Part shown: positions 28,217-44,094 of the stretch, in pieces | Numbering within the stretch: the first letter of the stretch is position 1 | Layout of the letters: each line of letters begins with the position of its first letter | Assembly (NCBI GenBank): GCA_964217375.1 | Contig: CAXPJQ010000059.1 | Location: forward strand, 11,208 to 75,207 | DNA from: Bdellovibrionales bacterium | GTDB taxonomy: Archaea; Nanobdellota; Nanobdellia; Woesearchaeales; UBA583 | Reading direction: 5' to 3' | Length of the DNA stretch: 64,000 nt | Position numbers and translations under genes: made by a program | Notes under the pieces: generated by a model | What the model was told of the DNA's origin: nothing | What the model saw: only the letters and a program-made list of their open reading frames with translations | Databases searched by the model: none

Positions 28217-28290
28217 AAGAGAAAATGCATAAAAATAATTTAAAATACTTTGTATTAAATTTAAGGGAAAAAAATAAAAAAATAATTAAT

Positions 28291-30179: not shown

Positions 30180-31019
30180 TTATCCATAAGCCTCGTATTT
30201 TTTTAAACCTATTTTCCAATTAAAATAAATTAAAATATTTAAAATTAAAATAATTAAAAAAAATATTAAAAATAAATCCAAATAAAAAAAATAATCTATA
30301 TTAATATCATTTAATAAGGGAATTATTAATTTTCCAATAATATATGCAGGAAATAAAAAAAATAAATTAACTAATTTAAATTTATTAAAAAAAGGTGCAG
30401 GATATAAAACAAAAAGTGAGTTAGTCCTATATAATAGATTAGTTAAATTTTTTTCAAAATTTTTATAAAAAAAAGCAATTGAATAAATTAAATTATACAA
30501 AGAAAAATAAATTAAAATACAAAACAAAAAAAGAATTAGCAAGAAAATACAATTTAATAAATTCATCTGAAAACTCATAATTAAAATTATTAAAATTGGA
30601 ACATTAACAATTACATATGTTAATGAGGATGGAGATAAATCTGAAAAATGATATTTAAATAATAATTCTCCAGGTCTTACTAATAAATTATTTAGTTCTC
30701 CTTTTAAAATTATTTCAGTAAGAAAATCACTCTTCCATGCAAAAATTCCTGCAGTTGTCCTTAGAGTATCTTCAATTAAAATAAATGTAAAAATTAAAAC
30801 TGAACTCCAAGTAATAATTTCATCAAAATTTTGATTTAAAACTAAAACGAAAATAAAAAAAGTTGAAAGGTAAAAAATTTGTTCAAAAAAAGCTGAATAA
30901 AAATTTGATTTATACTCAATTAATCTCTTTAACATAATCTTAACATTCTCAAAAATATAATTAATATAAAAATTCATTTTTATCCAAAAGCCTCGTATTT
31001 TTTTAGGCCAATTTTCCAA
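30180..31019 (-). CDS. ABC-2/DUF990-like polytopic permease paralog 1 of the tandem array (probable true start at the Met of 'MNFYINYIF', about 30977)
   Basis: About 265 aa and polytopic. Family motifs 'G.LN..L.KP.NPF' (here 'GELNNLLVRPGELLF') and C-terminal 'FNWKIGLKKYEAYG*'. The annotated N-terminus 'MENWPKKIRGFWIKM' is the preceding paralog's 3' end read in another frame. Confidence 0.6.
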   Translation of the reverse strand: MENWPKKIRGFWIKMNFYINYIFENVKIMLKRLIEYKSNFYSAFFEQIFYLSTFFIFVLVLNQNFDEIITWSSVLIFTFILIEDTLRTTAGIFAWKSDFLTEIILKGELNNLLVRPGELLFKYHFSDLSPSSLTYVIVNVPILIILIMSFQMNLLNCIFLLILFLFCILIYFSLYNLIYSIAFFYKNFEKNLTNLLYRTNSLFVLYPAPFFNKFKLVNLFFLFPAYIIGKLIIPLLNDINIDYFFYLDLFLIFFLIILILNILIYFNWKIGLKKYEAYG

Positions 31020-31813
31020 TTAAATAAAAATAGTATTAAGTAAATAAAAATTGCCATAAACAAATAAAAAAATAAATCAAATCTTGATATATTTAAATTA
31101 TTTGGAAATAAAAATAAAACTAAAATTGAGTGGAAAAAAATAAATAAAAGAAATTTAAATTTAATCAACTTAAAAAAATTAATCGGATAATTTGATAAAA
31201 TTCCACTAACTGGATAAAATATTTTTAAAATCTCAAAATCTAATTTTTTATAATAAAAACCTAAAGTTTCAATTAATTGATGAAAAAGAAATTGATAAAC
31301 AATTAATATTAATACTAATAAAAACCAAACTAAAAGATTAATCTCTCTTTCATTAAAAAAAATTAATAAAACAAATAATTCAAATAAAGAAAATAAAAAA
31401 TAAATCAATGCAGAAGAAGATAAATTATGAAAATAATATTTTAACTTTATATTAAGAGGCATTACTAAATGATTATTAAATTGAGAATTAATAATTGAAT
31501 AAGAAATTGATTTTCCCCAGATAAAAAAACCAATGAATTGATAAATAATTTTAATTAAAACCTGATAAATAAGAAAATCAACAAAACTCCAACCTATCAC
31601 ATCTCCAAAATTTTTAGCAACAATGAAACTTACAAAATAAGAAATTATAACATAAATTATTTGTATTAAAAACACAGAGTATAAGTTTGCTCTATACTCT
31701 TTCATTGTTTGAAACATCAAAAATAAGTTTACTTTAAACAAATCAAAATATCTTGAATTAAACTCTTTCATTTTTATCCAAAAGCCTCGTATTTTTTTAG
31801 GCCAATTTTCCAA
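30980..31813 (-). CDS. ABC-2/DUF990-like permease paralog 2 (probable start at 'MKEFNSRYF', about 31771)
   Basis: Ends 'FNWKIGLKKYEAFG*' and has the internal 'NNHLVMPLNIKLKYYF' block. Its stop and the next gene's ATG are 2 nt apart. Confidence 0.6.
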   Translation of the reverse strand: MENWPKKIRGFWIKMKEFNSRYFDLFKVNLFLMFQTMKEYRANLYSVFLIQIIYVIISYFVSFIVAKNFGDVIGWSFVDFLIYQVLIKIIYQFIGFFIWGKSISYSIINSQFNNHLVMPLNIKLKYYFHNLSSSALIYFLFSLFELFVLLIFFNEREINLLVWFLLVLILIVYQFLFHQLIETLGFYYKKLDFEILKIFYPVSGILSNYPINFFKLIKFKFLLFIFFHSILVLFLFPNNLNISRFDLFFYLFMAIFIYLILFLFNWKIGLKKYEAFG

Positions 31814-32583
31814 TTAAATATTAATATAATTAACAAAACTAAATTTATTAAAAAAAATATGTGTATTGAATTAATAATGTTTAAATAATTATTATCAAAT
31901 AAAGGAATTAAAAAATAACCTATTGAAAATAATGGAAAGAAAATAAAAATTTTATGTAAAAAAAAATTTGAGAATAAAGGTGCAGGTAAATATTTAAAAT
32001 TAATATCGGTAAAAACTAATTTAGATCTAATATTATTGATTGATTTTTTAAATTTAAATCCAAAAGAATCAATAAAATGATAAAATATTAAGTATTGGAT
32101 AAAAAATAAAAAAATAAGTAAAAAAAATATAATTAAAGATAAAAAGGTAATATTAGTTTTAAACATAAAATAAATTATAAATGGAATATAAATCAAATTA
32201 ATAATAACTGTATTAAATGAATGTGAAAAAATATAGTTAAAAAAAGGATTTACAGGTTTTGTAAGTAAAATATTTAATTTCCCTGTTACAATATACTCAG
32301 CAAGAGATCTTCCAAAAAAAGTAACTCCTGCTACATTATTAAGAAAAGTCCCAATTAGATATAATAATAAAAAATCAATATAACTCCAATCAATTAATAA
32401 AGAAAAATTTTGAATTGAAATTGTTGCAGTTGCTAAAACAAAAAACAAGTCTGAAATTTCTCCTAAAATTAAAGCATAAAAAGTTGGTTTATATTCTAAA
32501 AGAGATTTTATTGAAATTTTAAAATTAGTTAAAAATATTTCAAAATATTTTTTAAAAATACCCCTAGTTTTTAAATATGCCAT
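31774..32583 (-). CDS. ABC-2/DUF990-like permease paralog 3
   Basis: N-terminal 'SLLEYKPTFYAL', 'GKLNILLTKPVNPFFNY', and C-terminal 'FNWKIGLKKYEAFG*'. Confidence 0.6.
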   Translation of the reverse strand: MAYLKTRGIFKKYFEIFLTNFKISIKSLLEYKPTFYALILGEISDLFFVLATATISIQNFSLLIDWSYIDFLLLYLIGTFLNNVAGVTFFGRSLAEYIVTGKLNILLTKPVNPFFNYIFSHSFNTVIINLIYIPFIIYFMFKTNITFLSLIIFFLLIFLFFIQYLIFYHFIDSFGFKFKKSINNIRSKLVFTDINFKYLPAPLFSNFFLHKIFIFFPLFSIGYFLIPLFDNNYLNIINSIHIFFLINLVLLIILIFNWKIGLKKYEAFG

Positions 32584-32585
32584 TT

Positions 32586-33383
32586 TTATCCAAAAGCCTC
32601 ATACTTTTTTAAGCCATAATGCCACTCAATTAATAATATAATAAAACAAATTAATCCAAAAAATAAAAAATTAGGTAAATATACAAATACTTCAGTTGTT
32701 CTTCCTTTAAGAATTTCTATGAAGAAGTAATCAATAAAAGCAACTGGAAATAAATAAACTAACTCAACTATTTTTGTATTCTCAAAAAATTTAGGAGTAT
32801 AAGTTTCAACAGTAGAATTTAAATTTCTATAATATATTTCAAAAAGGTAATTAACTAACCCTTTTGTAAAAAAAGCCATACTAAATATTACATTTAAAAA
32901 TAAAACTTGAATTAAAAAACCTATTAATACTATTAAAAAAGCAAATAAAAAATTGCTATAGTCTTGACTTATAAAAATTAAAGATAATGTAATTATAAAT
33001 AAAATAAATGTAAAAGGTATAAATGAACCTCTAATCTCGTGTAAAACTAAAAAAAAAAATGGATTAACTGGTTTTGATAAAATTGTATTTAACTTACCTC
33101 TCTTTAAAATAAATACTAACATTCTAACCCAAAAAAATCTTAAAAATAGTGAAGAAAAAAACCCCATAAAAAAAAATAAAATGAAATCATAAAAATTCCA
33201 ATCTAAAATTCCATTACTCAAGTCATTAAAAAAATAATAAAAAAATAAATATGTTATAGTTAAAGAAACATTTACTAAAAAGCCCATAAAAAAATCAATT
33301 TTATATTCTTTTAATTGTTTCAAAGCTAAGATAAATTGAATTTTATAAACTGAAAAAATATTGGTTTTCATTTTTTTATCCAT
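32586..33383 (-). CDS. ABC-2/DUF990-like permease paralog 4 (probable start at 'MKTNIFS', about 33371)
   Basis: 'LKEYKIDFF', 'RGKLNTILSKPVNPFFF', and C-terminal 'EWHYGLKKYEAFG*'. Confidence 0.6.
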   Translation of the reverse strand: MDKKMKTNIFSVYKIQFILALKQLKEYKIDFFMGFLVNVSLTITYLFFYYFFNDLSNGILDWNFYDFILFFFMGFFSSLFLRFFWVRMLVFILKRGKLNTILSKPVNPFFFLVLHEIRGSFIPFTFILFIITLSLIFISQDYSNFLFAFLIVLIGFLIQVLFLNVIFSMAFFTKGLVNYLFEIYYRNLNSTVETYTPKFFENTKIVELVYLFPVAFIDYFFIEILKGRTTEVFVYLPNFLFFGLICFIILLIEWHYGLKKYEAFG

Positions 33384-34183
33384 AAGCCTCGTATTTTTTT
33401 AATCCGTAATGCCAAAGTAAATATGTTCCAAGTATAAAAAAATAAGAATGTGAATAATATTCCAAAAAAATAATAATAAAACTCCAAAAAATTATTTTTT
33501 AAAATCTCAATATAAAAGTATCCAATTAAAGCATTAGGTAGTAAATATAAAAACCAAAGAATTGAATCTCTAAATACTCTTGGTGTGAATTGCTCATTTA
33601 AATAATGTAGTTGATTTGAAACACTCACAATAAATGAAATATCTTTAATGAAAAATGCAAATGATTGAAAAAAAGAGATAAAAAATACATAATAAATCAA
33701 ACCAAAAAATAAAATTAAAAATGAAAATAGATAATTTGAGTATTCTCCAAAAAAAAGTAATATTAAAAGTATTGGGATAAAAATAAAAGTAGTATAAATT
33801 GCTGAATCTTTATCTCTAAGAGATAAAGCTAAAAATGGATTAATTGGTTTTGAAATCCATATATTTAAGTCTCCATTTAATAGCTTTAAATTAAAATATC
33901 TTAACCTAAACCAATAAGTTGCTTTTGTAATTAATGAAATACTCACATAAAATAAAATAAAATCATAATAACTCCAAGATAAAAATTCTTTTGAAATATC
34001 TTGAAAGATATTATAAAAAAGCAAATATACTAAGGTTAAAATTATATCAAAATAAAATACTGAAAAAAAATTAGCAGGATACTCTTTTATCTGTTTAAAA
34101 GCTTGAGAATAAATTTCTTTCATAAAGTTAATATGTTTTCTAAATGTATTTATTTTATTAATCTCTTTCATTTTTTTATCCAT
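33368..34183 (-). CDS. ABC-2/DUF990-like permease paralog 5, 3'-terminally frameshifted relative to the family
   Basis: 'IKEYPANFF' and 'GDLNIWISKPINPFLAL' are present, but the ORF ends '…TWNIFTLALRIKKIRGLWIKK*'. The family C-terminus 'LLWHYGLKKYEAYG*' is encoded in the adjacent reading frame of the same DNA at 33376..33420. The nearest paralog is 39605..40381. Confidence 0.5.
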   Translation of the reverse strand: MDKKMKEINKINTFRKHINFMKEIYSQAFKQIKEYPANFFSVFYFDIILTLVYLLFYNIFQDISKEFLSWSYYDFILFYVSISLITKATYWFRLRYFNLKLLNGDLNIWISKPINPFLALSLRDKDSAIYTTFIFIPILLILLFFGEYSNYLFSFLILFFGLIYYVFFISFFQSFAFFIKDISFIVSVSNQLHYLNEQFTPRVFRDSILWFLYLLPNALIGYFYIEILKNNFLEFYYYFFGILFTFLFFYTWNIFTLALRIKKIRGLWIKK

Positions 34184-34988
34184 AAGCCTCGTATTTTTTT
34201 AATCCATAATACCAAAGTAAATATGTTCCTAAAATAAAGAAAATAAAACTTGAAAGTATTACTTCAAAATACTTAAAAAATAAATAATTTCCTTTCAAAA
34301 TATTAACTAGAATAAAACTTCCCAAAGCAGAAGGGAAAATATAAATAAATTTCAAAAATAAATTATCCCTAAATGAATTTGGAGTGAATTCTTTTATTCT
34401 ATTATTTATCTTACTAGAAATATCAACTAAAAAAAAATTATTTTTAATAAAAAAAGCAGTTGAAATAAAAAAAGTTACAAATATTATTTGATAAATTGCA
34501 GAAAAAATAAAGTAAAATAAAAAGATAAAATTAAATTGATAAAAATAGAAAAGTAAAAATAGAAAAGATAAAAAAACTAAAGATGAAACAACTAAAACTG
34601 CTCCATTAAATCTAGTTGAAAAATAAAAAAATGGATTAATTGGTTTTGATAAAACAATATTTAATTTACCTTCTAATAAATCCCTATTTAATCTCTTAAC
34701 TGAAAAAACTATTACAAATTTTCCAAGTAATAATAAAATAAAAATAAACATTAAATAATCTACTTCATTCCAATTTGAAATTGAAGAAATTAAAGGAAAA
34801 AAAGCTAAATAAAAAGAAATCATAACTAAAATATAAACTAAATTAATTAGTAAAGCAGACCATAAATTAGCTTTATACTCTTTATTTTGTTTTAAAGCAA
34901 CACTAAAAATCTCAACTAAAACATCAAAATATTTAATGAAAATACTTCTATCTCTAAACTCTTTCATTTTTCTATCCAAAAGCCTCAT
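34176..34988 (-). CDS. ABC-2/DUF990-like permease paralog 6 (probable start at 'MKEFRDRSIF', about 34967)
   Basis: 'NKEYKANLW', 'GKLNIVLSKPINPFFYF', and C-terminal 'WYYGLKKYEAYG*'. Confidence 0.6.
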   Translation of the reverse strand: MRLLDRKMKEFRDRSIFIKYFDVLVEIFSVALKQNKEYKANLWSALLINLVYILVMISFYLAFFPLISSISNWNEVDYLMFIFILLLLGKFVIVFSVKRLNRDLLEGKLNIVLSKPINPFFYFSTRFNGAVLVVSSLVFLSFLFLLFYFYQFNFIFLFYFIFSAIYQIIFVTFFISTAFFIKNNFFLVDISSKINNRIKEFTPNSFRDNLFLKFIYIFPSALGSFILVNILKGNYLFFKYFEVILSSFIFFILGTYLLWYYGLKKYEAYG

Positions 34989-35784
34989 ATTTTTTTAAAC
35001 CATAATGCCAAATTATTTTTTCAAGAAAAATTAAAAAAATTAAAAATAAACCTCCTAAAATATAACTCAAATAAATTAAATCTAGAGAAACTTTTCCAAA
35101 GTAAAAAGAAATAGGTAAAACTCCATAAAGAGAAAAACCTATTATTAAACCAAAGAAAAATAAACTATTTTCAAATAATATTATTGGAAATTGGTGATAT
35201 AATCCGTCAAATCTTCTAAAAAATTTTAAAATTAAATAATTTTCTTTAATAAAAAAAGCAAGAGAATCTAAAACTCTAAATTCAAAAACTAAAATTCCTA
35301 TACCAATTAAGGAAATTAAAAAAGTTAGAATATAACTAGGATTTAAAAAGTTAAAATATAATCCAAAAAATAAAAATAAAATTAAATCAAAAAAGCAATA
35401 AAATAAAGCATAATATGGAAAATAAGTAATTGTACAAAAAAAATTAGTTAAAATTGGTTTAGTTAAATATAAATTTAAATCTCCTAATTTAATAGTATTT
35501 GAAAATTTTTTATACCACAAAAACAACCCAAAACTCATAACTAAAACTTGAGAATGTAAAAACATAAATATAATTTCAAAAATTGTAAAATCAATAAAAG
35601 AAAAATTATTTAATACAACTATTGTTGAAAAAATCATTACTAAATTAAATGTTAAATGGGAAATTGTTCCAGTATAAAACTGAGCCTTATATTGAAGAGC
35701 TTCTTTAATCCCAATACTAAATCTAGTTAAGAAAACATCAAAATATTTACCAATACAATTCCTTTTAACAAATTCTAAACTCAT
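34972..35784 (-). CDS. ABC-2/DUF990-like permease paralog 7
   Basis: 'ALQYKAQFY', 'GDLNLYLTKPILTNFF', and C-terminal 'WHYGLKKYEAFG*'. Confidence 0.6.
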   Translation of the reverse strand: MSLEFVKRNCIGKYFDVFLTRFSIGIKEALQYKAQFYTGTISHLTFNLVMIFSTIVVLNNFSFIDFTIFEIIFMFLHSQVLVMSFGLFLWYKKFSNTIKLGDLNLYLTKPILTNFFCTITYFPYYALFYCFFDLILFLFFGLYFNFLNPSYILTFLISLIGIGILVFEFRVLDSLAFFIKENYLILKFFRRFDGLYHQFPIILFENSLFFFGLIIGFSLYGVLPISFYFGKVSLDLIYLSYILGGLFLIFLIFLEKIIWHYGLKKYEAFG

Positions 35785-35793
35785 AAGAGAGTT

Positions 35794-36633
35794 TTAACCT
35801 CCAAAACTCTCTAATTTTGCAAATCCTTTTTTATATAAATATCTCATAAGTAATGCAAGTAAAATAATCCAGAAAGTGAAAATCCCCATAGCTTTTAATG
35901 CTTCAATTAAAGTTAATTTCCCAAGATATAGTGATGCAAAAGTAAATTCTAAATATAAAAAAGGAGTCCACGCTAAAAAGCTCTGCATCCACATTGGAAA
36001 TAAAGTTAGAGGTAATACCCTTCCTGATAAAATCCATAAAATTTGTTCAATTGATGCTTTAATCCCCCAAATTTCTACAAACCAAAAAGATAACCCTCCA
36101 ATAATTACATACAATACTATATCAAAAATTAACATTAAAAATAAATAAATTACAAATACAATCCAAATTGATCCACTTGGTGTTGGCAAATCAAATAGAT
36201 AAGTCATTACAATTAAAAGAATTGTAAATACAAATAAATTAACTACTTTAGATCCAATTCCATCTGTAAGTAAAGACTTTACAAAATTTACTGGCCTACA
36301 TAAAAAAATTGAAATATCTCCAGATTTAATTGTCTGAGAAATTCTATCTGCAATTTCTGAGGATCTTGCAGTATTTAAAAGTAAACCAATTATTAAATAA
36401 ACCATCATTTCCTGAAAAGTAAATCCTCCAATTGTAAATTCTGAAAGTGATGATACTAAAGCTGTTCCCTCAGCAAGAGCTGTCTCAAATTTTACTTGAT
36501 AAATATAAGACCAAATGTAATAAAAAAACACCCCCATAAATGCAGGTGTTACTAATGCTCCAATTAAATATGACTTATATTCAATTGAAGTTTTAAATCC
36601 AAGTTTAAAATATTCTAAATATTTGTTTGACAT
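35794..36633 (-). CDS. ABC-2/DUF990-like permease, divergent second type (first permease downstream of the nuclease gene)
   Basis: 'SIEYKSYLIGAL', 'GDISIFLCRPVNFVKS', and a divergent C-terminus 'YKKGFAKLESFGG*'. It is less Ile/Phe-biased than the other copies. Confidence 0.55.
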   Translation of the reverse strand: MSNKYLEYFKLGFKTSIEYKSYLIGALVTPAFMGVFFYYIWSYIYQVKFETALAEGTALVSSLSEFTIGGFTFQEMMVYLIIGLLLNTARSSEIADRISQTIKSGDISIFLCRPVNFVKSLLTDGIGSKVVNLFVFTILLIVMTYLFDLPTPSGSIWIVFVIYLFLMLIFDIVLYVIIGGLSFWFVEIWGIKASIEQILWILSGRVLPLTLFPMWMQSFLAWTPFLYLEFTFASLYLGKLTLIEALKAMGIFTFWIILLALLMRYLYKKGFAKLESFGG

Positions 36634-36636
36634 TTT

Positions 36637-37689
36637 TTAATTTAATTCCTCCAATGTTTTTTTTAACTCTTCTACACTTGGAAGCAACCCTTCAAATTTT
36701 TTAGGGAGACTTTTTGTAGTATTGTAGGTTCCAACACCAATTGGTTTTGAAGAATCTTTAAGAGAATATTCTACAATGGTTCTATTTTTTTCTTTACACA
36801 ATATAATTCCAATAGAAGGATTTTCATGTTTTAATTTAACTTTTTCATTTAGAGCAGATAAATAAAAATTCATTTTTCCTGCAAATTCTGGTTTAAATTC
36901 AGTTATTTTTAATTCAATTGCAACTAAACATTGGAGCTCTCTATGAAACAAAAGTACATCAATAAAATATTCTTGATCTCCTATTTCTAATTTATATTGT
37001 GTTCCAACTAAAGAAAAAAAGCCTCCAAATTCTTGTAAACTTTTTTTAATATGTAAAATTAAAGATTCTTCTAGTTCTCTTTCTGAATGTTCTGCACTAA
37101 GCTCTAAAAAATCAAAAGTATATTCATCTTTTATTGCAAGTTTTGCCTGAGACTTAAGATGATTAGGTAAACTTTTTTCAAAATTTGTTTGATTTGTCAT
37201 ATACTTTTCATAAGATTGGTTTTCAATTTGATGTTTTAAAACATTTTTTGTCCATCCAAATTTTTTTGTCATCTTAATGTAAAACTCTCTTTCTAATTCA
37301 TTTTTACATTTTTCAAAAATTAAAACATTTTTTGTCCAACTAATTTCACGCACCAATGGTGCGAGTTTTTCATTATCAAAATAAGAAGAGTAAAATGCTT
37401 TCATTCTTCTAAGAGTTCCAGCTGAGAAACCTGAAATTCCTGGAAATTCTAATTGTAATTCTTTTGAAAGGTTCTCAACAACAGAATCTCCCCAAGAATA
37501 TTTTTTTTGTTTCTCAACAATAAATTTACCTAAATTCCAATATAAATTAATTAATTCTTTATTTACAGTTTTAAGTGCTTTATATTGAGATTCTAAAATT
37601 AAAGATTTCACCTCAACTACAAAATTTTTAAAATTTTTATCTAAATCTGACATTTTATTCTCCTTTATTTTGTTCATACATCTCTGCAA
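36637..37689 (-). CDS. YhcG/DUF1016-family PD-(D/E)xK nuclease (RecB-like restriction-endonuclease fold); probable start at 'MSDLDKNF', about 37653
   Basis: N-terminal DUF1016 block 'NKELINLYWNLGKFIVEKQKKYSWGDSVVENLSKELQLEFPGISGFSAGTLRRMKAFYSSY'. C-terminal nuclease core 'EYFIDVLLFHRELQCLVAIELKITEFKPEFAGKMNFYLS…IGIILCKEKN', in which D, E and K form the PD-(D/E)xK triad. Confidence 0.6.
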   Translation of the reverse strand: MQRCMNKIKENKMSDLDKNFKNFVVEVKSLILESQYKALKTVNKELINLYWNLGKFIVEKQKKYSWGDSVVENLSKELQLEFPGISGFSAGTLRRMKAFYSSYFDNEKLAPLVREISWTKNVLIFEKCKNELEREFYIKMTKKFGWTKNVLKHQIENQSYEKYMTNQTNFEKSLPNHLKSQAKLAIKDEYTFDFLELSAEHSERELEESLILHIKKSLQEFGGFFSLVGTQYKLEIGDQEYFIDVLLFHRELQCLVAIELKITEFKPEFAGKMNFYLSALNEKVKLKHENPSIGIILCKEKNRTIVEYSLKDSSKPIGVGTYNTTKSLPKKFEGLLPSVEELKKTLEELN

Positions 37690-38686
37690 TTATATGTTCT
37701 AAATTTGGTTCTTGAATTGATAAATCATGAATTTCAATTGATTTTACAACATCTGTTAAAAATTTACCTAAAGAGTTTTTCATAGGAAATTCAAAAATAA
37801 TTGATTTAGGGATTTCACTTTTTCTATTTGGAACTTTTTCTTTTAATTTATTCCACAATTCTTTATCTAAAACTTTTTTATAATGAATTGTAACATCTTT
37901 TGAATTTGCATAAGTTTCTTTGAAATTTTTAACTGAACCCTCATATGCAAGAGTTCCTTTATCAATTACTACAATTCTTTGACATAACTCTTCAATATCA
38001 TCCATGTCATGAGTTGTAATCATAATTGTAACTTCCTCTTCCTTGTTAATTTGTTTTAAAAAATTTCTAATTGAAATTTTAGCTTGTGCATCAAGTCCAA
38101 TTGTTGGTTCATCTAAAAAAACAATTTTTGGTTTATGTAGAAATGAAGCCGCAAGTTCACATCTCATTTTCTCTCCAAGAGATAACATCCGATATGGTGT
38201 TTCAAAAAAAGGTTCAATCCCAAGCATTTCAACTAAATATTTTACTCTTTTTTGATAAAATTCCTCAGATAATCCATAAATTGCTTTAAATAATCTAAAT
38301 GAATCTCTAACTGGGATATCATATGCAAGAATTGATCTTTGTCCAAATACAACTCCAATGTTTTGAGTATATTCATTTCTATTTTCAATTGGATTTAAAT
38401 TCCCCATTACTTTAATTTCTCCTGAAGTTGGATGTAAAATTCCAGTAAGCATTTTAATTGTAGTTGATTTACCTGCACCATTTGGCCCAAGATATCCTAA
38501 AATTTCTCCCTTTTTAACTTCTAAATTAATATCTTCCACAGCTACTTTTTTTTCCCATTCTCTATAAAACCAAGATAACCTTTTTTTAACTGTAGAGAGA
38601 TTTTTTTCCTTTTTAGGAACTTTAAATTCTTTTTTCAAATCCTTAACTTCAATAATATTTTTCATTTTTTTAATTGATAAAAACAT
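37655..38686 (-). CDS. ABC transporter ATP-binding protein (COG4586-like, partner of the DUF990 permeases)
   Basis: Walker A 'GPNGAGKSTTIKMLTG', signature 'LSLGEKMRCELAAS', Walker B 'IVFLDEPTIGLD', and H-loop 'ITTHD'. About 330 aa with a C-terminal extension. Confidence 0.85.
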   Translation of the reverse strand: MFLSIKKMKNIIEVKDLKKEFKVPKKEKNLSTVKKRLSWFYREWEKKVAVEDINLEVKKGEILGYLGPNGAGKSTTIKMLTGILHPTSGEIKVMGNLNPIENRNEYTQNIGVVFGQRSILAYDIPVRDSFRLFKAIYGLSEEFYQKRVKYLVEMLGIEPFFETPYRMLSLGEKMRCELAASFLHKPKIVFLDEPTIGLDAQAKISIRNFLKQINKEEEVTIMITTHDMDDIEELCQRIVVIDKGTLAYEGSVKNFKETYANSKDVTIHYKKVLDKELWNKLKEKVPNRKSEIPKSIIFEFPMKNSLGKFLTDVVKSIEIHDLSIQEPNLEHIIAEMYEQNKGE

Positions 38687-38818
38687 AAATATTTTCTTTA
38701 TAAATTAAAATTATTTTTTTTCTTTAAAATAGTTTGTATTTAATTTTAGATATTAATTAGAAATAATATCCATATTTTGCAAATTAAAACTAAAAAAAAA
38801 TAATTCTGCTTTCATATT

Positions 38819-39601
38819 TTAACCAAAAGCCTCATACTTTTTTAGTCCTTGTCTCCAAATAAATAAGTTAATAACTCCTAATATAAATAAATATGAAATT
38901 AATACTAATATATAGTTATAAAAATAAGTTAAGTTTCCAAGTAAGATTTGATATGTTAAATAACAAACAACTCCTTGAGGTAAAAAAACAAATATTATCT
39001 TAGCAAAATAGATATGATTCTCAAAAGCTGCATATGTAAATCTTTGAGATATCTCCTCAACACTTTTTGACATTAATTTAATTGATGAACTGTCTTTGAT
39101 AAAAAAACCTAAGATTTCTATAGTATTTGAAAAAAATAATGATCCCATAAATCCTATTATCCAAAATAAAAAACTTAGAAAATAATTTTCAAGTGTATAT
39201 AAAAATAAAACTATTACTAGAATAATTAAATATATGAAAAGTACTACTACCTTTCCCTGTTTAAAATTATTTGTTAAATATACAAAATAAGTAGATATAG
39301 GTTTAAATAAATGAATATTTAAATTTCCTTTTAATAATTCCTTACTAAAGTTAGAAAAATAAAAAATATTGTTTAATCTTAATGAAAATTTTGTAAGAAT
39401 ATAAAAAAATATTAAATCATATACGTCCCAGTTTAAAATAAAATCTCCAACTAAATCAATATATACTAAATAAAATATTATTGTAATTCCAAAAGTAAAA
39501 ATTTCTTTTAAAAAAATAGCATAAAAATCAGATTTATATTCTAAAAATGACTTAATTGAAATAATTAATTTCTCATAAAAATATTCAAAATATTTATTCA
39601 T
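38819..39601 (-). CDS. ABC-2/DUF990-like permease paralog (upstream pair, member 1)
   Basis: 'SFLEYKSDFY', 'GNLNIHLFKPISTYF', and C-terminal 'WRQGLKKYEAFG*'. Confidence 0.6.
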   Translation of the reverse strand: MNKYFEYFYEKLIISIKSFLEYKSDFYAIFLKEIFTFGITIIFYLVYIDLVGDFILNWDVYDLIFFYILTKFSLRLNNIFYFSNFSKELLKGNLNIHLFKPISTYFVYLTNNFKQGKVVVLFIYLIILVIVLFLYTLENYFLSFLFWIIGFMGSLFFSNTIEILGFFIKDSSSIKLMSKSVEEISQRFTYAAFENHIYFAKIIFVFLPQGVVCYLTYQILLGNLTYFYNYILVLISYLFILGVINLFIWRQGLKKYEAFG

Positions 39602-39604
39602 ATT

Positions 39605-40381
39605 TTAACCAAAAGCCTCATACTTTTTCAAGCCAATTTTCCATAAAATATAATTTCCAAATATAAAAATTAAAAATGAAATAATAATAAATATAAAATA
39701 CTTAGAAAGATAATCAAATCTATTATTAACTAATTCAATAAAATAAAAACCAAATAAAGCAGTAGGCAAGTAAAATAAAAAATTTAATTTAGTACCCTCA
39801 AATACCTTTGGAGTAAATCTATCATTTAGGTATGCAACATCTTTGCTAATTCTTATGATAAAATTATTTTGTTTTATAAAAAAAGCTAATGACTCAAAAA
39901 AATCTGTATATACTATGTAATATATTAAACTAAAAAACAACAACAAAATTCCCTGAAATATATTTTGATAAGGTCCATAAAGGTATAATATAATTAAAAA
40001 AAATAAAAAAATAAAAGTTGTAAAAATTGCTCCATCCTTTGCTCTCGAAGACATTCCAATAAAAGGATTAATTGGTTTAGATTTCCAGATATTTAAATCT
40101 CCTAAAAGTAATTGTTTATTTAAACTCCTTAAAATAAAAAAATATGTTCCTTTACTTATCATTTGAATAGTTACATATAGTAAAATAAAGTCTAAATAAG
40201 TCCAACTTAAAAAATTAAGAGATAAGGATTGAATAATTGAATAAAAAAATAGATATACAATAGTCAAAGAAATATCAAAATAAACAATACTCCAAAAATT
40301 AATAGGATATTCTTTAATTTGTTTAAATGCTTGAAAATATATCTCTTTCATAAAATTAAAGTGATTTTTTACAATGTTCAT
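39605..40381 (-). CDS. ABC-2/DUF990-like permease paralog (upstream pair, member 2)
   Basis: 'IKEYPINFW', 'GDLNIWKSKPINPFIGM', and C-terminal 'WKIGLKKYEAFG*'. Its N-terminal third is near-identical to that of paralog 5. Confidence 0.6.
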   Translation of the reverse strand: MNIVKNHFNFMKEIYFQAFKQIKEYPINFWSIVYFDISLTIVYLFFYSIIQSLSLNFLSWTYLDFILLYVTIQMISKGTYFFILRSLNKQLLLGDLNIWKSKPINPFIGMSSRAKDGAIFTTFIFLFFLIILYLYGPYQNIFQGILLLFFSLIYYIVYTDFFESLAFFIKQNNFIIRISKDVAYLNDRFTPKVFEGTKLNFLFYLPTALFGFYFIELVNNRFDYLSKYFIFIIISFLIFIFGNYILWKIGLKKYEAFG

Positions 40382-42117
40382 TTTTGCATATTTAACATAT
40401 TATAAAATTTAGACTTTTTATCTTTTATTAATTCTTTGTAGTTACCTTGTTCAATTATTTTTCCTTGTTCAAATACAAAAATTCTATCTACATTTTTTAA
40501 TGTGGATAATCTATGTGCAATAATTAAAATTGTTTTATTTTTAATTAAGTCAATTCCTTTTTGAATTTTCATTTCAGTTTTAGAATCAAGAGCTGAAGTT
40601 GCCTCATCTAGAATTAAGATCTCTGAATTTTTACAAATTGCTCTTGCAATTCCAACTCTTTGTCTTTGCCCTCCAGATAATTTATATCCTTTCTCACCAA
40701 TAATTGTATCAAGTCCATTTGGTAATTCTTTAATTACCTCATTAAGTTGAGATATTTCAATTGCTTTTCTCAAAGTTTTGGAATCTATCTCCTTAAACAT
40801 TGTAATATTTTCTTTGAGAGTTACATTTAACATCTCAGTTTCTTGCATAACTTGAGATAAATTATCTAAAAGAGATTGATGTGAAAAATCATAGTAATTA
40901 GTATGATCTACTTTTATTTCTCCTTCATTTATTTGATAAAGTCCTAAAAATAATTTTGAAAGAGTTGATTTTCCTGAACCTGAATGTCCAACAATTCCAA
41001 TTTTTTCATGTTTTTTAATTTTAAATGAAATGTTATCTAAATTATTTTTTTTATTATCATAAGAGAAAGATACATTATTGAAAGAAATTGTTTTCCAATC
41101 TTTTTTAAATTCTTCTTCTCCAAAATACTTTTCTTCTTTAGTTTCAAAAATAGGTATGATTCTATTCATTGCAGATCTAATTGATATAAGATCATTAAGT
41201 ATTGAATTTGATCTCCAAAATGATGCTGTAATTTGATTAAAATATACAAATGAAGTAGCAATAAATCCAACTTCAACTAGTTCATTTGATACAAAGTGTC
41301 CTAGTAATAATAAGAAAAAAAATAAACCAAAAGCGATTAAGTAATTCACATGTTTTGTTCTAGTGTTTCCGATTTTAATTGCTCTGAACTGAACTTCTTT
41401 GAAAGTAATTTCTCCTTTTTTCATAGATGATTTCAAAGATTGAGAAGAACCACTAGATTTTATGGATAAGATATTGTTTGCTCCTTCATTAAGAGACCCT
41501 GAAACTTTTTCTAATACTTTATTTTTCTCTTCTTCTATATCAGCTTGCTTTTTTAAAAAAGATTTCATAATTAAAATAAAAACTCCAACATAGACTATAA
41601 AAAATAATAAAAAATACAAATCTAAAAATAAAAAAATAATAATAACTCCTGAAAAAGTTAATATTAACCCAAGAGCATCTTGATTAAATACATTAATTAA
41701 CTGTCTATAACTACTAGATCCATTGTTTACTTTTTGAAGTTTTGAACCTGAACCATCTTTTTCGTGCCATTTTAATGAAAAATTTAAAAGTTTTTCAAAA
41801 GCAAAATTTCTTGCTTTAAAAGTTGTATTAACACCAATCTCCTTTAGTTTTCTTTTTGCAACCATTCTCACTTGAGAAGTTAATAATCCTGAAAAGAGAA
41901 TTATTCCTGTGTATATGTAAAATAAATTTAATGAATCTCCTTTATTATATTCTGTAAAAAAATTAATTATCAACCCAATAATATATGGGATAATTAGTGT
42001 ATTGGAATGAGATAAAAAATTAAGACTCATATAAAATGAAAACTTTAATCTCTCACCCTCTAAAAAGTGCCATAATGACTTAAACATATGTGTCCATGTA
42101 ATTATTTCTTTGTTCAT
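40378..42117 (-). CDS. fused TMD-NBD ABC exporter (MsbA/multidrug-exporter type)
   Basis: Six predicted TM helices, then Walker A 'GHSGSGKSTLSKLF', signature 'LSGGQRQRVGIARA', Walker B 'ILILDEATSALD', and H-loop 'IIAHRLS'. A 4-nt ATGA overlap joins it to the neighbouring genes on both sides. Confidence 0.85.
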   Translation of the reverse strand: MNKEIITWTHMFKSLWHFLEGERLKFSFYMSLNFLSHSNTLIIPYIIGLIINFFTEYNKGDSLNLFYIYTGIILFSGLLTSQVRMVAKRKLKEIGVNTTFKARNFAFEKLLNFSLKWHEKDGSGSKLQKVNNGSSSYRQLINVFNQDALGLILTFSGVIIIFLFLDLYFLLFFIVYVGVFILIMKSFLKKQADIEEEKNKVLEKVSGSLNEGANNILSIKSSGSSQSLKSSMKKGEITFKEVQFRAIKIGNTRTKHVNYLIAFGLFFFLLLLGHFVSNELVEVGFIATSFVYFNQITASFWRSNSILNDLISIRSAMNRIIPIFETKEEKYFGEEEFKKDWKTISFNNVSFSYDNKKNNLDNISFKIKKHEKIGIVGHSGSGKSTLSKLFLGLYQINEGEIKVDHTNYYDFSHQSLLDNLSQVMQETEMLNVTLKENITMFKEIDSKTLRKAIEISQLNEVIKELPNGLDTIIGEKGYKLSGGQRQRVGIARAICKNSEILILDEATSALDSKTEMKIQKGIDLIKNKTILIIAHRLSTLKNVDRIFVFEQGKIIEQGNYKELIKDKKSKFYNMLNMQK

Positions 42118-43073
42118 TTTAGTATGTTATGAATTTCTTCTAATTTATTTAAGCAATTATTTCTCATGGTATCTTTTCTTTTTATTGTCTGAGGCTCATC
42201 TAAGTTCCTCCATTTATGAGACTTTAATTTGGATAGTCTACTTAAATTTTTCATCCATGTATAAAAATAATATAATCTCTCCCAATTTTCAGGCAATTCA
42301 TTATATTTTGAATATCCTTTTACAATTGAAGTTTTGTACTTAAATTTTTCATCACCAAAATCAAATCCAGAAAAAAGGTCTTCTATTGTCCCACTAACTC
42401 TTGCGAATTCGAAATCTATGATACCATGAATTAGGTTATTTTTTATTATAAGGTTTGTGTTTGATGCATCTCCATGACATAATCTAGGTTCTGATTCTAA
42501 AGAAAGTAAGTGCTTATGTTTTTGATAAAATTGAGATTCTGTTTCAATTTGTTCTTCTGAGATAATATTATCTTCTTTTAATCTTTCAAACATTTTATTA
42601 ATTTCATTTTCTTTTTTTTCTTGCCATGATTCATATGAATGTCTTTGTTCTAGTTTATAATTTAATTCAGAATATTTTTCATATTTAAAAGAATGAAACA
42701 TTCCATAAATCTCACCATATTGTTCAAATAATTTCTCTTTATTTGTTATTTTATTGTAAACCTTCTTTAATGATTTTCCTTCAATTTTTTCTAAAATAAT
42801 AAATGAATAATTTACTTCTTTTTTTGAATAATTATCATAAATAATATCTGCAATTGGAAAGTTTGGATATTTATTTTGAAGTAATTCTTTTAGGGCTTTT
42901 TGTTTTAATGCTAATTTTTTATCTTCGAGTAATTTTATTTTCTTGAAAACTATACCTTTGTTTTCTAGCTTGATATCATAAGCTACATTATTATATCCCT
43001 CTTCAAATTCTTTTATTTCTAAGATTTTTTCATTAGGAAAAATTTTAGTTAGTAATTGTTTTATTTCTTTCAT
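42114..43073 (-). CDS. aminoglycoside-phosphotransferase (APH)/choline-kinase-family small-molecule kinase
   Basis: Brenner motif 'LCHGDASNTNLII' and the downstream 'IIDFEFARVSG', which is the DFG equivalent. 319 aa. Confidence 0.65.
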   Translation of the reverse strand: MKEIKQLLTKIFPNEKILEIKEFEEGYNNVAYDIKLENKGIVFKKIKLLEDKKLALKQKALKELLQNKYPNFPIADIIYDNYSKKEVNYSFIILEKIEGKSLKKVYNKITNKEKLFEQYGEIYGMFHSFKYEKYSELNYKLEQRHSYESWQEKKENEINKMFERLKEDNIISEEQIETESQFYQKHKHLLSLESEPRLCHGDASNTNLIIKNNLIHGIIDFEFARVSGTIEDLFSGFDFGDEKFKYKTSIVKGYSKYNELPENWERLYYFYTWMKNLSRLSKLKSHKWRNLDEPQTIKRKDTMRNNCLNKLEEIHNILK

Positions 43074-43480
43074 TTTAATTGTTTAATTAATTCTATTTCA
43101 TTTAATGAATTAGTTTTATTTGTCTTTTGATAATTTAGTTTCTCATAAAACATTATTGCTTTTTTATTATCTTCTTCTACATATAATTTTATTTGAAAGA
43201 AATTTTTAATTTTTATTTCATTTTCTAAGAATTTGATTAAATTTGAACCAAAACCCTTTGATCTCAAATTCTCATCAATATATATATCTTCAAGAATTGG
43301 AATTTTTTTCCACAAAATTCTACCATGTCCAATTGGGTTATCATTGTCCCATATAATATAAAATAAACTTTCTTTTTTCTTTTGAGACTCTAATCTCTTT
43401 TCAAAAGGTTCTCTTACACTCCATTTTTTTTCTATAATATCTAGATCTGATTCTTGAAGATTTTTTATTTGGATATTCAT
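43070..43480 (-). CDS. GNAT-family N-acetyltransferase
   Basis: 136 aa. Motif A region 'ENLRSKGFGSNLIKFLENE' (R/Q-x-x-G-x-G/A). Confidence 0.6.
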   Translation of the reverse strand: MNIQIKNLQESDLDIIEKKWSVREPFEKRLESQKKKESLFYIIWDNDNPIGHGRILWKKIPILEDIYIDENLRSKGFGSNLIKFLENEIKIKNFFQIKLYVEEDNKKAIMFYEKLNYQKTNKTNSLNEIELIKQLK

Positions 43481-44094
43481 TCTATAATTAACACCTCTCC
43501 ATCTCTTAGAGTTCTATATGGAATATTATTTTCAATACAATATTGAACTTCTTTTTCAATATCTTCTGATTCAGGGTGATCCGAATCAAAGTGAGGTAGA
43601 ATCATATAATCTAAAATACCTAATCCTTCCCAAATTGTTTCTTTTATTTCCTTATATGGAAAATCATAAGGATCATCTACAATTTGTAATGACTTCATAT
43701 CTTTATACAAAATACAAAGAGCTGCACTAAATCCTGCATATAAAAAATCATTATTTAAATTTGTTTGTATATATCTATCAAATCCCGATAATTTCATTGC
43801 TTGTCTTAGAACAAAAGTATTTCCTCCATTAATCCAAATAGCTTTTACTTCATCTAATTTTTTAAATAATTCTTTTGATTTACCAAAGTAATCTCTTAAA
43901 TCTAATACTTCAGGTTCAAGCCCTAATTGTTTTAAACTATTAATTTGATTTGACATATTAATTTTTTTTCTTTCTAAATCCTTAGCTGTAAAATCCATTG
44001 CATTTGGAATATAGAAAATTTTTTTATTTGGAATCATTTCTTTTAATTTGTTTCCTTGATTTCCTATTTTATATGATGATAAATAAAATTTCAT
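43477..44094 (-). CDS. peptidase S51 (dipeptidase E/cyanophycinase-like) family protein
   Basis: 'AIWINGGNTFVLRQAM' matches the GGNTF nucleophile-elbow region of S51 peptidases. Size is about 205 aa. Confidence 0.5.
   Translation of the reverse strand: MKFYLSSYKIGNQGNKLKEMIPNKKIFYIPNAMDFTAKDLERKKINMSNQINSLKQLGLEPEVLDLRDYFGKSKELFKKLDEVKAIWINGGNTFVLRQAMKLSGFDRYIQTNLNNDFLYAGFSAALCILYKDMKSLQIVDDPYDFPYKEIKETIWEGLGILDYMILPHFDSDHPESEDIEKEVQYCIENNIPYRTLRDGEVLIIE

What the first reader, a model, noticed from the sequence alone, without database searches (positions are those of the whole stretch)
36637..37689. Restriction-endonuclease-fold nuclease (YhcG/DUF1016-like) embedded inside the ABC transporter operon
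The ORF between the ABC ATPase and the permease array has the DUF1016 N-terminal block ('…ELINLYWNLGKFIVEKQ…WGDSVVENLSKEL…GFSAGTLRRMKAFY') and a C-terminal PD-(D/E)xK core ('IDVLLF…ELK'). Such nucleases are typically found in defence islands or R-M neighbourhoods, not inside transporter operons. Its start overlaps the ATPase's end, and its stop is 3 nt from the next permease ATG, so it appears translationally coupled to the transporter genes. That makes a functional link between nuclease and transporter plausible, as opposed to a simple insertion. Candidate roles are an abortive-infection or defence module, or a sensor.
Basis: partly seen in the sequence, partly recalled or inferred. Interest (0 to 1): 0.65.

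Follow-up and report, generated by a model that had tools for sequence, protein, structure and literature searches.

The report
Stray nuclease gene inside transporter operon
An intact gene of the widespread, functionally uncharacterised YhcG/DUF1016 nuclease family sits between two genes of an ABC transporter operon in a tiny (Nanoarchaeota) archaeon, but its closest relatives lack it there, so it looks like a passenger and not a part of the transporter.

Summary
Window 36637..37653 (-) encodes a 338-aa protein with full-length DUF1016_N and YhcG_C Pfam domains (E 3.8e-43 and 3.1e-57). It has a conserved E191/D232/E247-x-K249 motif. A confident AlphaFold model (pLDDT 92.6) has a C-terminal domain that matches PD-(D/E)xK nucleases (EndoMS/NucS, Can2).

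The real start is ATG 37653, 1 nt after the ATPase stop. It is not the overlapping TTG at 37689.

The proposed functional link to the transporter is not supported:
- Three related Nanoarchaeota loci (ATPase 89, 89 and 73% identical) have the ATPase followed directly by the permease, with 12-42 nt spacers.
- A fourth locus (72%) carries different cargo at the same junction: a Bro-N protein (PADLOC PDC-S13) plus a nucleotidyltransferase.
- None of the seven close nuclease homologs examined (61-66% identity) lies next to an ABC transporter. They sit in an RND efflux operon, a type I-D cas operon, beside an MmeI-like R-M gene and in a polysaccharide cluster. One is solitary.

Best reading: this is a horizontally acquired solitary nuclease gene riding on the operon's expression. 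It matches PADLOC defence candidate PDC-S02, which is not validated and gave one published negative test. It is an ordinary new member of a known family. The recurrent use of this junction is mildly interesting.

The parts
36637..37653 (-). YhcG/DUF1016-family nuclease gene (338 aa plus stop), with the start corrected to ATG 37653
   Evidence: Pfam DUF1016_N 3.8e-43 and YhcG_C 3.1e-57. PADLOC PDC-S02 1.4e-136. An identical 338-aa public gene call, P0001. AlphaFold2 model with pLDDT 92.6.
37204..37614 (-). DUF1016_N: all-helical N-terminal domain (about residues 14-150 of the 338-aa protein)
   Evidence: The Pfam match covers profile positions 1-137 of 137. The model shows helices only through residue 173. 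No structural match for this domain appeared among the top PDB or BFVD hits.
36682..37137 (-). YhcG_C PD-(D/E)xK nuclease domain (about residues 173-324)
   Evidence: The Pfam match covers profile positions 3-156 of 157. The model has alpha(191-200)-beta(213-224)-beta(227-237)-beta(242-248)-alpha(255-272)-beta(281-286) topology. Foldseek hits are EndoMS/NucS 5gke (1.2e-4), 2vld, Can2 and Card1.
37081..37083 (-). Codon for E191, the first acidic residue of the E-D-E(I/L/V)K motif
   Evidence: E in 69 of 70 homologs of 32-65% identity. The motif was defined by Kosinski et al. 2005.
36958..36960 (-). Codon for D232, the catalytic Asp on strand beta-2
   Evidence: D in 70 of 70 homologs.
36907..36915 (-). 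Codons for E247-L248-K249, the (D/E)xK element on strand beta-3
   Evidence: E or D in 68 of 70 homologs and K in 68 of 70.
37660..37665 (-). AAGGAG Shine-Dalgarno-like motif for the nuclease. It lies inside the last codons (K-G-E) of the ATPase gene.
   Evidence: Sequence reading. The same KGE codons end the ATPase in L004 and L005, which lack the nuclease.
36648..36652 (-). GGAGG Shine-Dalgarno-like motif for the downstream permease. It lies inside the last codons of the nuclease gene.
   Evidence: Sequence reading.
37655..38686 (-). ABC ATPase, first gene of the host operon (context)
   Evidence: Pfam ABC_tran 2.8e-27. Orthologs of 89, 89, 73 and 72% identity in L004, L005, L028 and L006.
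35794..36633 (-). Type-A ABC-2 permease (279 aa). It is the gene that directly follows the ATPase in relatives (context).
   Evidence: Pfam ABC2_membrane_6 4.7e-20. It is directly adjacent to the ATPase in L004, L005 and L028.
30180..35784 (-). Seven further ABC2_membrane_6 permease paralogs that complete the operon (context)

Best explanation
This is a solitary, horizontally acquired gene of the YhcG/DUF1016 family, made of a helical N-terminal domain and a C-terminal PD-(D/E)xK nuclease. It has landed in the intercistronic gap between the ATPase and the first permease of an ABC-2 transporter operon in a low-GC Nanoarchaeota (DPANN) archaeon.

It carries no recognisable promoter or mobility genes. 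I infer that it is expressed as a passenger: transcribed by read-through from the operon promoter upstream of the ATPase, and translated from a Shine-Dalgarno-like AAGGAG inside the ATPase's last codons. Its own last codons supply GGAGG for the downstream permease.

I infer from fold and motif that the protein is a metal-dependent DNA phosphodiesterase. E191, D232 and E247 would bind the metal and K249 would complete the site. The N-terminal domain would target or gate the nuclease.

Its most likely role is that of a self-contained accessory module acting on nucleic acid, either a defence candidate (PADLOC PDC-S02) or an addiction-type selfish gene, working independently of the transporter.

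Shown here: family membership, intact conserved catalytic motif, predicted fold, lineage-specific presence, and reuse of the same junction by other cargo. Inferred: co-transcription, nuclease activity and substrate, and the defence or selfish role.
For: Family and fold:
- Pfam, both domains full length.
- PADLOC PDC-S02 at 1.4e-136.
- E191, D232, E/D247 and K249 conserved in 69, 70, 68 and 68 of 70 homologs. This matches the published YhcG motif E-D-E(I/L/V)K.
- AlphaFold2 model with pLDDT 92.6 and alpha-beta-beta-beta-alpha-beta core topology.
- Foldseek hits to EndoMS/NucS, Can2, Card1, Bax1, XisH and restriction enzymes, and to viral PD-(D/E)xK proteins.

Insertion, not partnership:
- L004 and L005 (ATPase 89% aa identity, 83-85% nt) have ATPase stop, 12 nt, then permease ATG.
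- L028 (73%) has a 42-nt spacer.
- L006 (72%) carries a Bro-N protein (PADLOC PDC-S13, 3.6e-115) plus a Polbeta nucleotidyltransferase at the same junction.

Promiscuous contexts of 61-66% identical homologs:
- an RND efflux operon (L023);
- a type I-D cas operon between cas3' and cas10d (L025; also Anabaena plasmid pANA02, L047);
- overlapping an MmeI/Eco57I-like R-M gene (L014);
- a polysaccharide cluster (L027);
- next to a glycoside hydrolase (L021);
- after an HTH gene (L018);
- solitary (L013).

Horizontal transfer and mobility:
- Best non-self hits are about 65% identical and spread over Ignavibacteria, Woesearchaeota, Nostoc, Elusimicrobiota, Nitrospiraceae and Methanoperedens.
- The family has 20,755 clusters at 50% identity.
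- It is present on 521 plasmid records and 15 phage records.

Literature:
- It piggybacks between traU and traW on a Rickettsia conjugative element (PMC4316617).
Against: - No nuclease activity or substrate has ever been shown for any family member in the literature I could search.
- The single PDC-S02 representative tested gave no protection against T4, T5 or T7 in E. coli B (PMC12881386). The defence role therefore rests on guilt by association.
- The gene's composition (GC 25.5%, GC3 12.1%) cannot be told apart from the host's. No donor closer than 65% identity was found. Acquisition is therefore inferred from presence and absence, not from a compositional signature. A precise loss in the L004/L005 lineage cannot be formally excluded.
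- No target-site duplication, terminal repeats, integrase or transposase flank the gene, so the insertion mechanism is unknown.
- Only four related junctions could be sampled.
Confidence: 0.75

Rival explanations
1. The nuclease is a functional accessory of the ABC-2 transporter. Examples would be a sensor or effector co-regulated with export, or a nuclease acting on transported or incoming nucleic acid.
For: Gaps of 1 nt and 3 nt, the same strand, and Shine-Dalgarno motifs embedded in the neighbouring coding ends imply co-expression. One close homolog also sits inside a transporter operon of the RND type (L023).
Against: Three of four related operons lack it and the fourth has other cargo. 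None of the seven close nuclease homologs examined is beside an ABC-2 transporter. The protein has no predicted membrane or ABC-interaction domain: only DUF1016_N and YhcG_C were found, and the model is a soluble two-domain fold.
Confidence: 0.05
2. It is a selfish, homing-like free-standing endonuclease gene. It would spread as a bare ORF into intercistronic junctions by cutting empty alleles and being copied in during repair.
For: There is a gene-sized presence/absence difference exactly at an intercistronic junction. No recombinase or repeats are present. Homologs are repeatedly embedded co-directionally inside unrelated operons (PMC9881135; PMC4316617). The catalytic site is intact.
Against: Each close homolog occupies a different site, so there is no shared homing site. 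No near-identical empty allele was found: the three contigs at 99.7-99.8% identity are all filled. Conservation of 60-65% across phyla suggests selection for a general cellular function, not the rapid decay cycle of homing genes. L006's junction holds a Bro-N protein that is not a nuclease.
Confidence: 0.1
3. It is a housekeeping DNA-repair nuclease, analogous to NucS/EndoMS, that happens to be encoded here.
For: The best structural matches are EndoMS/NucS (5gke at 1.2e-4; 2vld). Kosinski et al. linked YhcG_C to DUF91.
Against: It is absent from the nearest relatives. The family has a patchy, transfer-like distribution and occurs on plasmids and phages. Identity to NucS is only 14-16% over about 130 columns, and the N-terminal domain is different.
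Confidence: 0.07
4. It is an inactive relic with no current function.
For: No function is known for the family. One PDC-S02 test was negative.
Against: The ORF is intact and full length. All four catalytic residues are present. The protein is 100% identical across three contigs of the population. Codon composition is host-like.
Confidence: 0.03

Closest known systems
YhcG family (E. coli YhcG; Pfam PF17761 DUF1016_N + PF06250 YhcG_C; COG4804)
   Same: Same two-domain architecture over the full length. Same E-D-E(I/L/V)K motif. Same size, about 340 aa.
   Different: This copy is archaeal (DPANN) and is embedded in an ABC-2 transporter operon. No member of the family has a demonstrated activity, so 'works like' cannot be specified beyond the fold.
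PADLOC phage-defence candidate PDC-S02
   Same: Full-length HMM match at 1.4e-136, residues 4-336. It is a single-gene module.
   Different: PDC-S02 is a guilt-by-association candidate. Here the neighbourhood is not a phage-defence island. A tested representative did not protect E. coli B from T4, T5 or T7.
DUF1016 genes embedded in type I R-M, Cj0031-like type II R-M and type I-D CRISPR-Cas operons
   Same: Same behaviour: a lone DUF1016 ORF inserted co-directionally between the core genes of an operon (PMC9881135; L014, L025, L047).
   Different: The host operon here is a membrane transporter, not a nucleic-acid-targeting system.
NucS/EndoMS (DUF91) mismatch endonuclease
   Same: Closest solved fold for the C-terminal domain (5gke, 2vld; Foldseek 1e-4, probability 1.00). 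Kosinski et al. noted the same orthodox motif.
   Different: Identity is 14-16%. The N-terminal domain is different. There is no evidence for PCNA binding or mismatch specificity.
Can2/Card1 CRISPR ancillary nucleases (nuclease domain)
   Same: PD-(D/E)xK domain similarity (8q3z, 6xl1). The protein also matches a PADLOC 'PD_DExK, CAS-associated' HMM at 2.4e-26.
   Different: There is no CARF sensor domain. DUF1016_N is an unrelated helical domain.
Free-standing homing endonuclease genes of T-even phages (Seg and Mob genes; named from my own knowledge, not tested here)
   Same: They are gene-sized insertions between conserved genes, absent from close relatives, and lack recombinase or repeats.
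   Different: They belong to different nuclease families (GIY-YIG, HNH). No homing site or cleavage of the empty allele is shown here, and homologs occupy many different sites.

Membership tests
YhcG/DUF1016 family (PF17761 + PF06250) | C-terminal YhcG_C domain scoring above the Pfam gathering threshold | tested here: met
   193.3 bits against a cut-off of 32.5, covering profile positions 3-156 of 157.
YhcG/DUF1016 family (PF17761 + PF06250) | N-terminal DUF1016_N helical domain | tested here: met
   147.3 bits against a cut-off of 32.8, covering profile positions 1-137 of 137. The region is all-helical in the model.
YhcG/DUF1016 family (PF17761 + PF06250) | Orthodox E-D-E(I/L/V)K catalytic motif (Kosinski et al. 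2005) | tested here: met
   E191, D232 and E247-L-K249 are present. They are conserved in 69, 70, 68 and 68 of 70 homologs.
PD-(D/E)xK phosphodiesterase superfamily | Alpha-beta-beta-beta-alpha-beta core fold, with the motif residues on alpha-1, beta-2 and beta-3 | tested here: met
   In the pLDDT 92.6 model, E191 lies on helix 191-200, D232 on strand 227-237 and E247 on strand 242-248. Foldseek matches solved PD-(D/E)xK nucleases with probability 1.00. The three-dimensional geometry of the four residues was not measured.
PD-(D/E)xK phosphodiesterase superfamily | Metal-dependent nuclease activity | not testable with these tools
   This needs biochemistry. No activity for any YhcG member was found in the searchable literature.
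PADLOC PDC-S02 (phage defence candidate) | Match to the PDC-S02 HMMs as a single gene | tested here: met
   1.4e-136, 453.6 bits, full length.
PADLOC PDC-S02 (phage defence candidate) | Confers protection against viruses | not testable with these tools
   One published representative gave no protection against T4, T5 or T7 (PMC12881386). There are no data for archaea.
Dedicated accessory subunit of the ABC-2 transporter | Conserved co-occurrence with the ATPase and permease genes in related genomes | tested here: not met
   It is absent at the junction in L004, L005 and L028, and L006 has different genes there. None of the seven nuclease homolog contexts includes an ABC-2 transporter.
Transposon, IS or integron-cassette-borne gene | Terminal inverted repeats, target-site duplication, attC-like site, or an adjacent transposase or integrase | tested here: not met
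   Only chance-level AT-rich repeats were found, and none brackets the gene. No recombinase ORF lies within the operon.
Free-standing homing endonuclease gene | Presence/absence polymorphism at a fixed intergenic site | tested here: inconclusive
   Filled and empty states are seen only between lineages about 15% diverged in nucleotide sequence. No empty allele exists among the near-identical contigs. Homologs sit at different sites.
Free-standing homing endonuclease gene | The enzyme cleaves the empty allele near the insertion point | not testable with these tools
   This needs an in vitro cleavage assay on the junction DNA of L004 or L005.
Toxin-antitoxin module | An adjacent small cognate partner gene | tested here: not met
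   The gaps to the ATPase and the permease are 1 nt and 3 nt, which leaves no room for a partner ORF.

The most novel reading that the evidence does not exclude
The ATPase-permease junction of this ABC-2 operon may be a recurrent landing pad in Nanoarchaeota for promoter-less, recombinase-less single-gene 'defence candidates'. DUF1016/PDC-S02 sits there in this window, and Bro-N/PDC-S13 plus a nucleotidyltransferase sit there in L006. That would point to a class of bare-ORF elements that parasitise intercistronic gaps of expressed operons. The same genes also sit between the core genes of R-M and cas operons. DUF1016 might promote its own insertion through its nuclease activity.
Probability: 0.12. 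Interest if true: 0.6.

Novelty: new member of a known kind. Interest (0 to 1): 0.27.

Why it matters
As it stands, this is a correctly recognised member of a very large, functionally uncharacterised nuclease family, in an unusual but incidental location. Its value is modest.
- It documents, with empty-site controls, that DUF1016 genes insert as bare ORFs into the intercistronic gaps of operons unrelated to defence. This warns against reading tight operon packing as a functional link.
- It shows that PADLOC-type single-gene defence candidates (PDC-S02, PDC-S13) occur in streamlined DPANN archaea, at a shared variable junction.
- If DUF1016 were shown to drive its own insertion, or to act as an archaeal antiviral nuclease, the clean filled/empty pair described here would be a convenient test case.

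Tried and rejected
- Sequence search of the PDB found no hit at E <= 0.01.
- NCBIfam has no family for the nuclease, only a spurious 18-bit hit.
- The first AlphaFold run, on 50 close homologs, gave a poor model (pLDDT 64.7, with a disordered nuclease domain). I replaced it with a run on a 70-sequence alignment of 32-65% identity (pLDDT 92.6).
- The repeat search around the gene found nothing that brackets the insert.
- The sigma-70 promoter and terminator scan was uninformative. It found 18 sites against 22.1 expected, and the host is an AT-rich archaeon. The one terminator-like hairpin lies on the opposite strand inside the gene.
- Base composition shows no foreign signature: GC 25.5% and GC3 12.1% against a window GC of 24.5%. 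The apparently higher GC of 35.5-38.7 kb compared with the flanks reflects the very AT-rich type-B permease genes, not an island.
- The metagenome scan for more related junctions yielded only one further informative locus, L028. Three other close hits ended inside the ATPase gene.
- A toxin-antitoxin reading was rejected because there is no room for a partner gene.
- A check of a more distant ABC locus (L032) was not comparable, because it is a different ABC type.

Full report
**1. What is in the sequence**

On the minus strand there is a run of tightly packed genes. An ABC ATPase lies at 37655..38686. The flagged ORF follows. Then comes a 279-aa ABC-2 permease (35794..36633), and then seven more ABC2_membrane_6 permease paralogs down to 30180.

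The ORF lister starts the flagged ORF at TTG 37689 (350 aa). Reading the DNA shows the ATPase stop TAA at 37657..37655, one base, and then ATG 37653..37651. AAGGAG lies six bases upstream of that ATG.

The 338-aa product from this ATG is exactly the public gene call (P0001). It has the length of the homologs (337-345 aa), which cover 97-100% of it. So the gene is 36637..37653. It does not overlap the ATPase; a 1-nt gap separates them. All the quoted peptide blocks are present.

**2. What the protein is**

- Pfam gives two full-length domain matches. DUF1016_N has E 3.8e-43 and 147 bits against a cut-off of 32.8. YhcG_C has E 3.1e-57 and 193 bits against a cut-off of 32.5.
- PADLOC matches its single-gene 'phage defence candidate' PDC-S02 over the whole length (1.4e-136).
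- NCBIfam and a sequence search of the PDB give nothing.
- The family is huge: 20,755 clusters at 50% identity with E <= 1e-3.

In an alignment of 70 homologs at 32-65% identity, E191 is kept in 69, D232 in 70, E/D247 in 68 and K249 in 68. This is the E-D-E(I/L/V)K motif that Kosinski et al. (2005) defined for YhcG.

An AlphaFold2 model built on that alignment is confident (mean pLDDT 92.6). Residues 1-173 are helical. The C-terminal half has alpha(191-200), beta(213-224), beta(227-237), beta(242-248), alpha(255-272), beta(281-286). The motif residues sit on alpha-1, beta-2 and beta-3, as in PD-(D/E)xK enzymes.

Foldseek against the PDB returns EndoMS/NucS (5gke at 1.2e-4; 2vld), Can2, Card1, Bax1, XisH, MGME1 and restriction enzymes, each over about 130 columns. 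BFVD returns viral PD-(D/E)xK proteins. The nuclease identification stands.

**3. Is it linked to the transporter?**

The window and three public contigs (L001-L003, 99.7-99.8% nt identity) are one population, and all carry the gene. The nearest other lineages do not:

- In L005 (Nanoarchaeota DS_MAG177) and L004 (uncultured archaeon), the ATPase is 89% identical in protein (83-85% nt) and the permease about 80-82% nt. In both, the ATPase stop is followed by a 12-nt spacer and then the permease ATG.
- In L028 (73%), the spacer is 42 nt.
- In L006 (Nanoarchaeia H1H2.bin.12, 72%), the same junction holds two other genes. One is a 277-aa Bro-N protein that is a full-length match to PADLOC PDC-S13 (3.6e-115). 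The other is a 255-aa Polbeta-type nucleotidyltransferase.

BLAST places the window-specific segment at about 36625..37652, which is the nuclease gene and nothing else. The simplest history is a lineage-specific, gene-sized insertion that replaced the short spacer. The junction has been used at least twice by different cargo.

**4. Where the nuclease's relatives live**

The best non-self hits are only about 65% identical. They are scattered over Ignavibacteria, Woesearchaeota, Nostocales, Elusimicrobiota, Nitrospiraceae and Methanoperedens. That pattern is typical of horizontal transfer.

Seven close homologs were traced to their contigs:

| Locus | Context |
|---|---|
| L023 | Inside an RND efflux operon: AcrB-like, MFP, DUF1016, AcrB-like |
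| L025 | Inside a type I-D cas operon, with DUF433 and MNT/HepT modules |
| L014 | Overlapping by 4 nt an MmeI/Eco57I-like R-M gene |
| L027 | In a sugar-nucleotide / polysaccharide cluster |
| L021 | Next to a glycoside hydrolase |
| L018 | After an HTH gene |
| L013 | Solitary |

The cas-operon arrangement is also annotated on Anabaena sp. 90 plasmid pANA02, where the gene lies between cas3' and cas10d. None of the seven is next to an ABC transporter. In six of the seven, both neighbours are co-oriented with the gene.

The family occurs on 521 of 72,556 plasmid records and in 15 phage records, including Wolbachia phage WO.

Published work describes the same habit. [quoted passage not shown] It is found 'between core CDSs' of type I R-M operons (PMC9881135). 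It also piggybacks between traU and traW on a Rickettsia conjugative element (PMC4316617).

The ABC context here is therefore one more incidental host operon, not evidence of a nuclease-transporter system.

**5. How it is probably expressed**

The only sizeable non-coding stretch is the 132 nt upstream of the ATPase (38687..38818). In relatives the ATPase is likewise the first gene of its unit. I infer read-through transcription from that promoter.

The Shine-Dalgarno-like AAGGAG for the nuclease is formed by the K-G-E codons that also end the ATPase in the empty-site relatives. The nuclease's last codons (LEELN) supply GGAGG 14 nt before the permease ATG. Throughout the array, the conserved permease tail (..KKYEAFG) places GAGG 8-15 nt before the next start.

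Co-transcription and coupling are plausible but inferred. A bacterial-type promoter and terminator scan was uninformative.

**6. How it got there, and what it does**

No target-site duplication, terminal repeats or recombinase gene flank the gene. Its GC (25.5%) and GC3 (12.1%) equal the host's. The donor was therefore a similarly AT-rich organism, or the gene has been resident long enough to ameliorate. The mechanism of insertion is unknown.

On function, I commit to a metal-dependent DNA endonuclease that acts as a self-contained accessory module, as a defence candidate or an addiction-type selfish gene, independently of the transporter. The evidence for defence is associative only (PADLOC). 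The one PDC-S02 gene tested experimentally did not protect E. coli B against T4, T5 or T7 (PMC12881386). In P. aeruginosa, PDC-S02 presence correlates positively with prophage number.

A homing-like selfish reading is not excluded. It fits the bare-ORF insertions into intercistronic gaps. It is weakened because every homolog sits at a different site, and because the other cargo at this junction is not a nuclease. A NucS-like repair role is unlikely given the patchy distribution and the gene's absence from sister lineages.

**7. Neighbourhood**

Upstream of the ABC genes lie an ABC-B exporter, an APH/Bud32-like kinase, three GNAT acetyltransferases, an S51 peptidase and a nucleotidyltransferase. 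Downstream lie a 608-aa and a 1066-aa protein without family, then housekeeping genes (aIF5B-like GTPase, ScpB, FtsZ). Apart from generic P-loop matches of the ATPase, none of the ten neighbouring proteins screened against PADLOC exceeded a marginal hit (best E 1.5e-5). This is not a recognisable phage-defence island.

**8. Verdict**

The identification as a YhcG/DUF1016 PD-(D/E)xK protein is confirmed. The 'functional link with the transporter' is not supported.

This is a new member of a known kind. The points of interest are the clean filled and empty junction comparison, and the reuse of one junction by two different PADLOC single-gene candidates in DPANN archaea.

Noticed in passing
window 30180..36633 and 38819..40381 (minus strand): There is one type-A permease (279 aa, ending KLESFGG) and nine type-B ABC2_membrane_6 permease paralogs (258-279 aa). 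The paralogs are only 25-53% identical to each other, and eight of the nine type-B copies end in GLKKYEA(F/Y)G. Related loci have fewer (L006 has 1+3). An array of ten permease genes for one or two ATPases is unusual.
   Followed up: partly
window 33368..34183 (minus strand): This permease paralog ends in ...LALRIKKIRGLWIKK, which is the conserved GLKKYEAFG tail read in another frame. This suggests a frameshifted C-terminus. The same out-of-frame reading explains the spurious TTG starts ('MENWPKKIRGFWIKM') of ORFs 30180..31019 and 30980..31813, whose real starts are the ATG 15 codons in.
   Followed up: partly
window 30180..35784, 3' ends of the permease genes: The codons of the conserved tail (..TAC GAG GCT TTT GG. 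TAA) place a GAGG Shine-Dalgarno-like motif 8-15 nt before the next gene's ATG. Part of the protein-level conservation of the tail may therefore reflect a translation signal for the next cistron.
   Followed up: no
L006 5905..7508: At the junction equivalent to the nuclease's position, a related Nanoarchaeia genome carries a Bro-N protein (PADLOC PDC-S13, 3.6e-115) and a 255-aa Polbeta nucleotidyltransferase. That nucleotidyltransferase is 53% identical to window 45025..45792, so its homolog in the window lies about 7 kb upstream of the operon and not inside it.
   Followed up: partly
window 42114..45792 (minus strand): A co-directional run of small-molecule-modifying genes sits directly upstream of the ABC exporters: an APH/Bud32-like kinase, three GNAT acetyltransferases, an S51 peptidase and a nucleotidyltransferase. 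It resembles an antibiotic-modification or resistance-type gene cluster in a DPANN archaeon.
   Followed up: no
window 25016..30117 (minus strand): Two large ORFs (1066 aa and 608 aa) lie immediately downstream of the permease array. Neither has a Pfam match above its curated cut-off, nor an NCBIfam or PADLOC match; the only hits are a weak Ig-like Big_13 hit and a weak Ca_tandemer repeat hit for the 1066-aa protein.
   Followed up: no
L025 / L026 (Nostoc) and L047 (Anabaena sp. 90 plasmid pANA02, NC_019429.1 51983..53002): In Nostocales, a DUF1016 gene 60-62% identical to the window's sits inside the type I-D cas operon between cas3' and cas10d, next to HepT or MNT-HepT modules. This embedding is conserved across several cyanobacterial genomes.
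   Followed up: partly
window 37236..37346 (minus-strand gene, residues about 103-140): There is an internal 27-nt direct repeat (89% identical, 84 nt apart) encoding ..SWTKNVL.. and ..GWTKNVL.. . This hints at an internal duplication of a helical unit within DUF1016_N.
   Followed up: no
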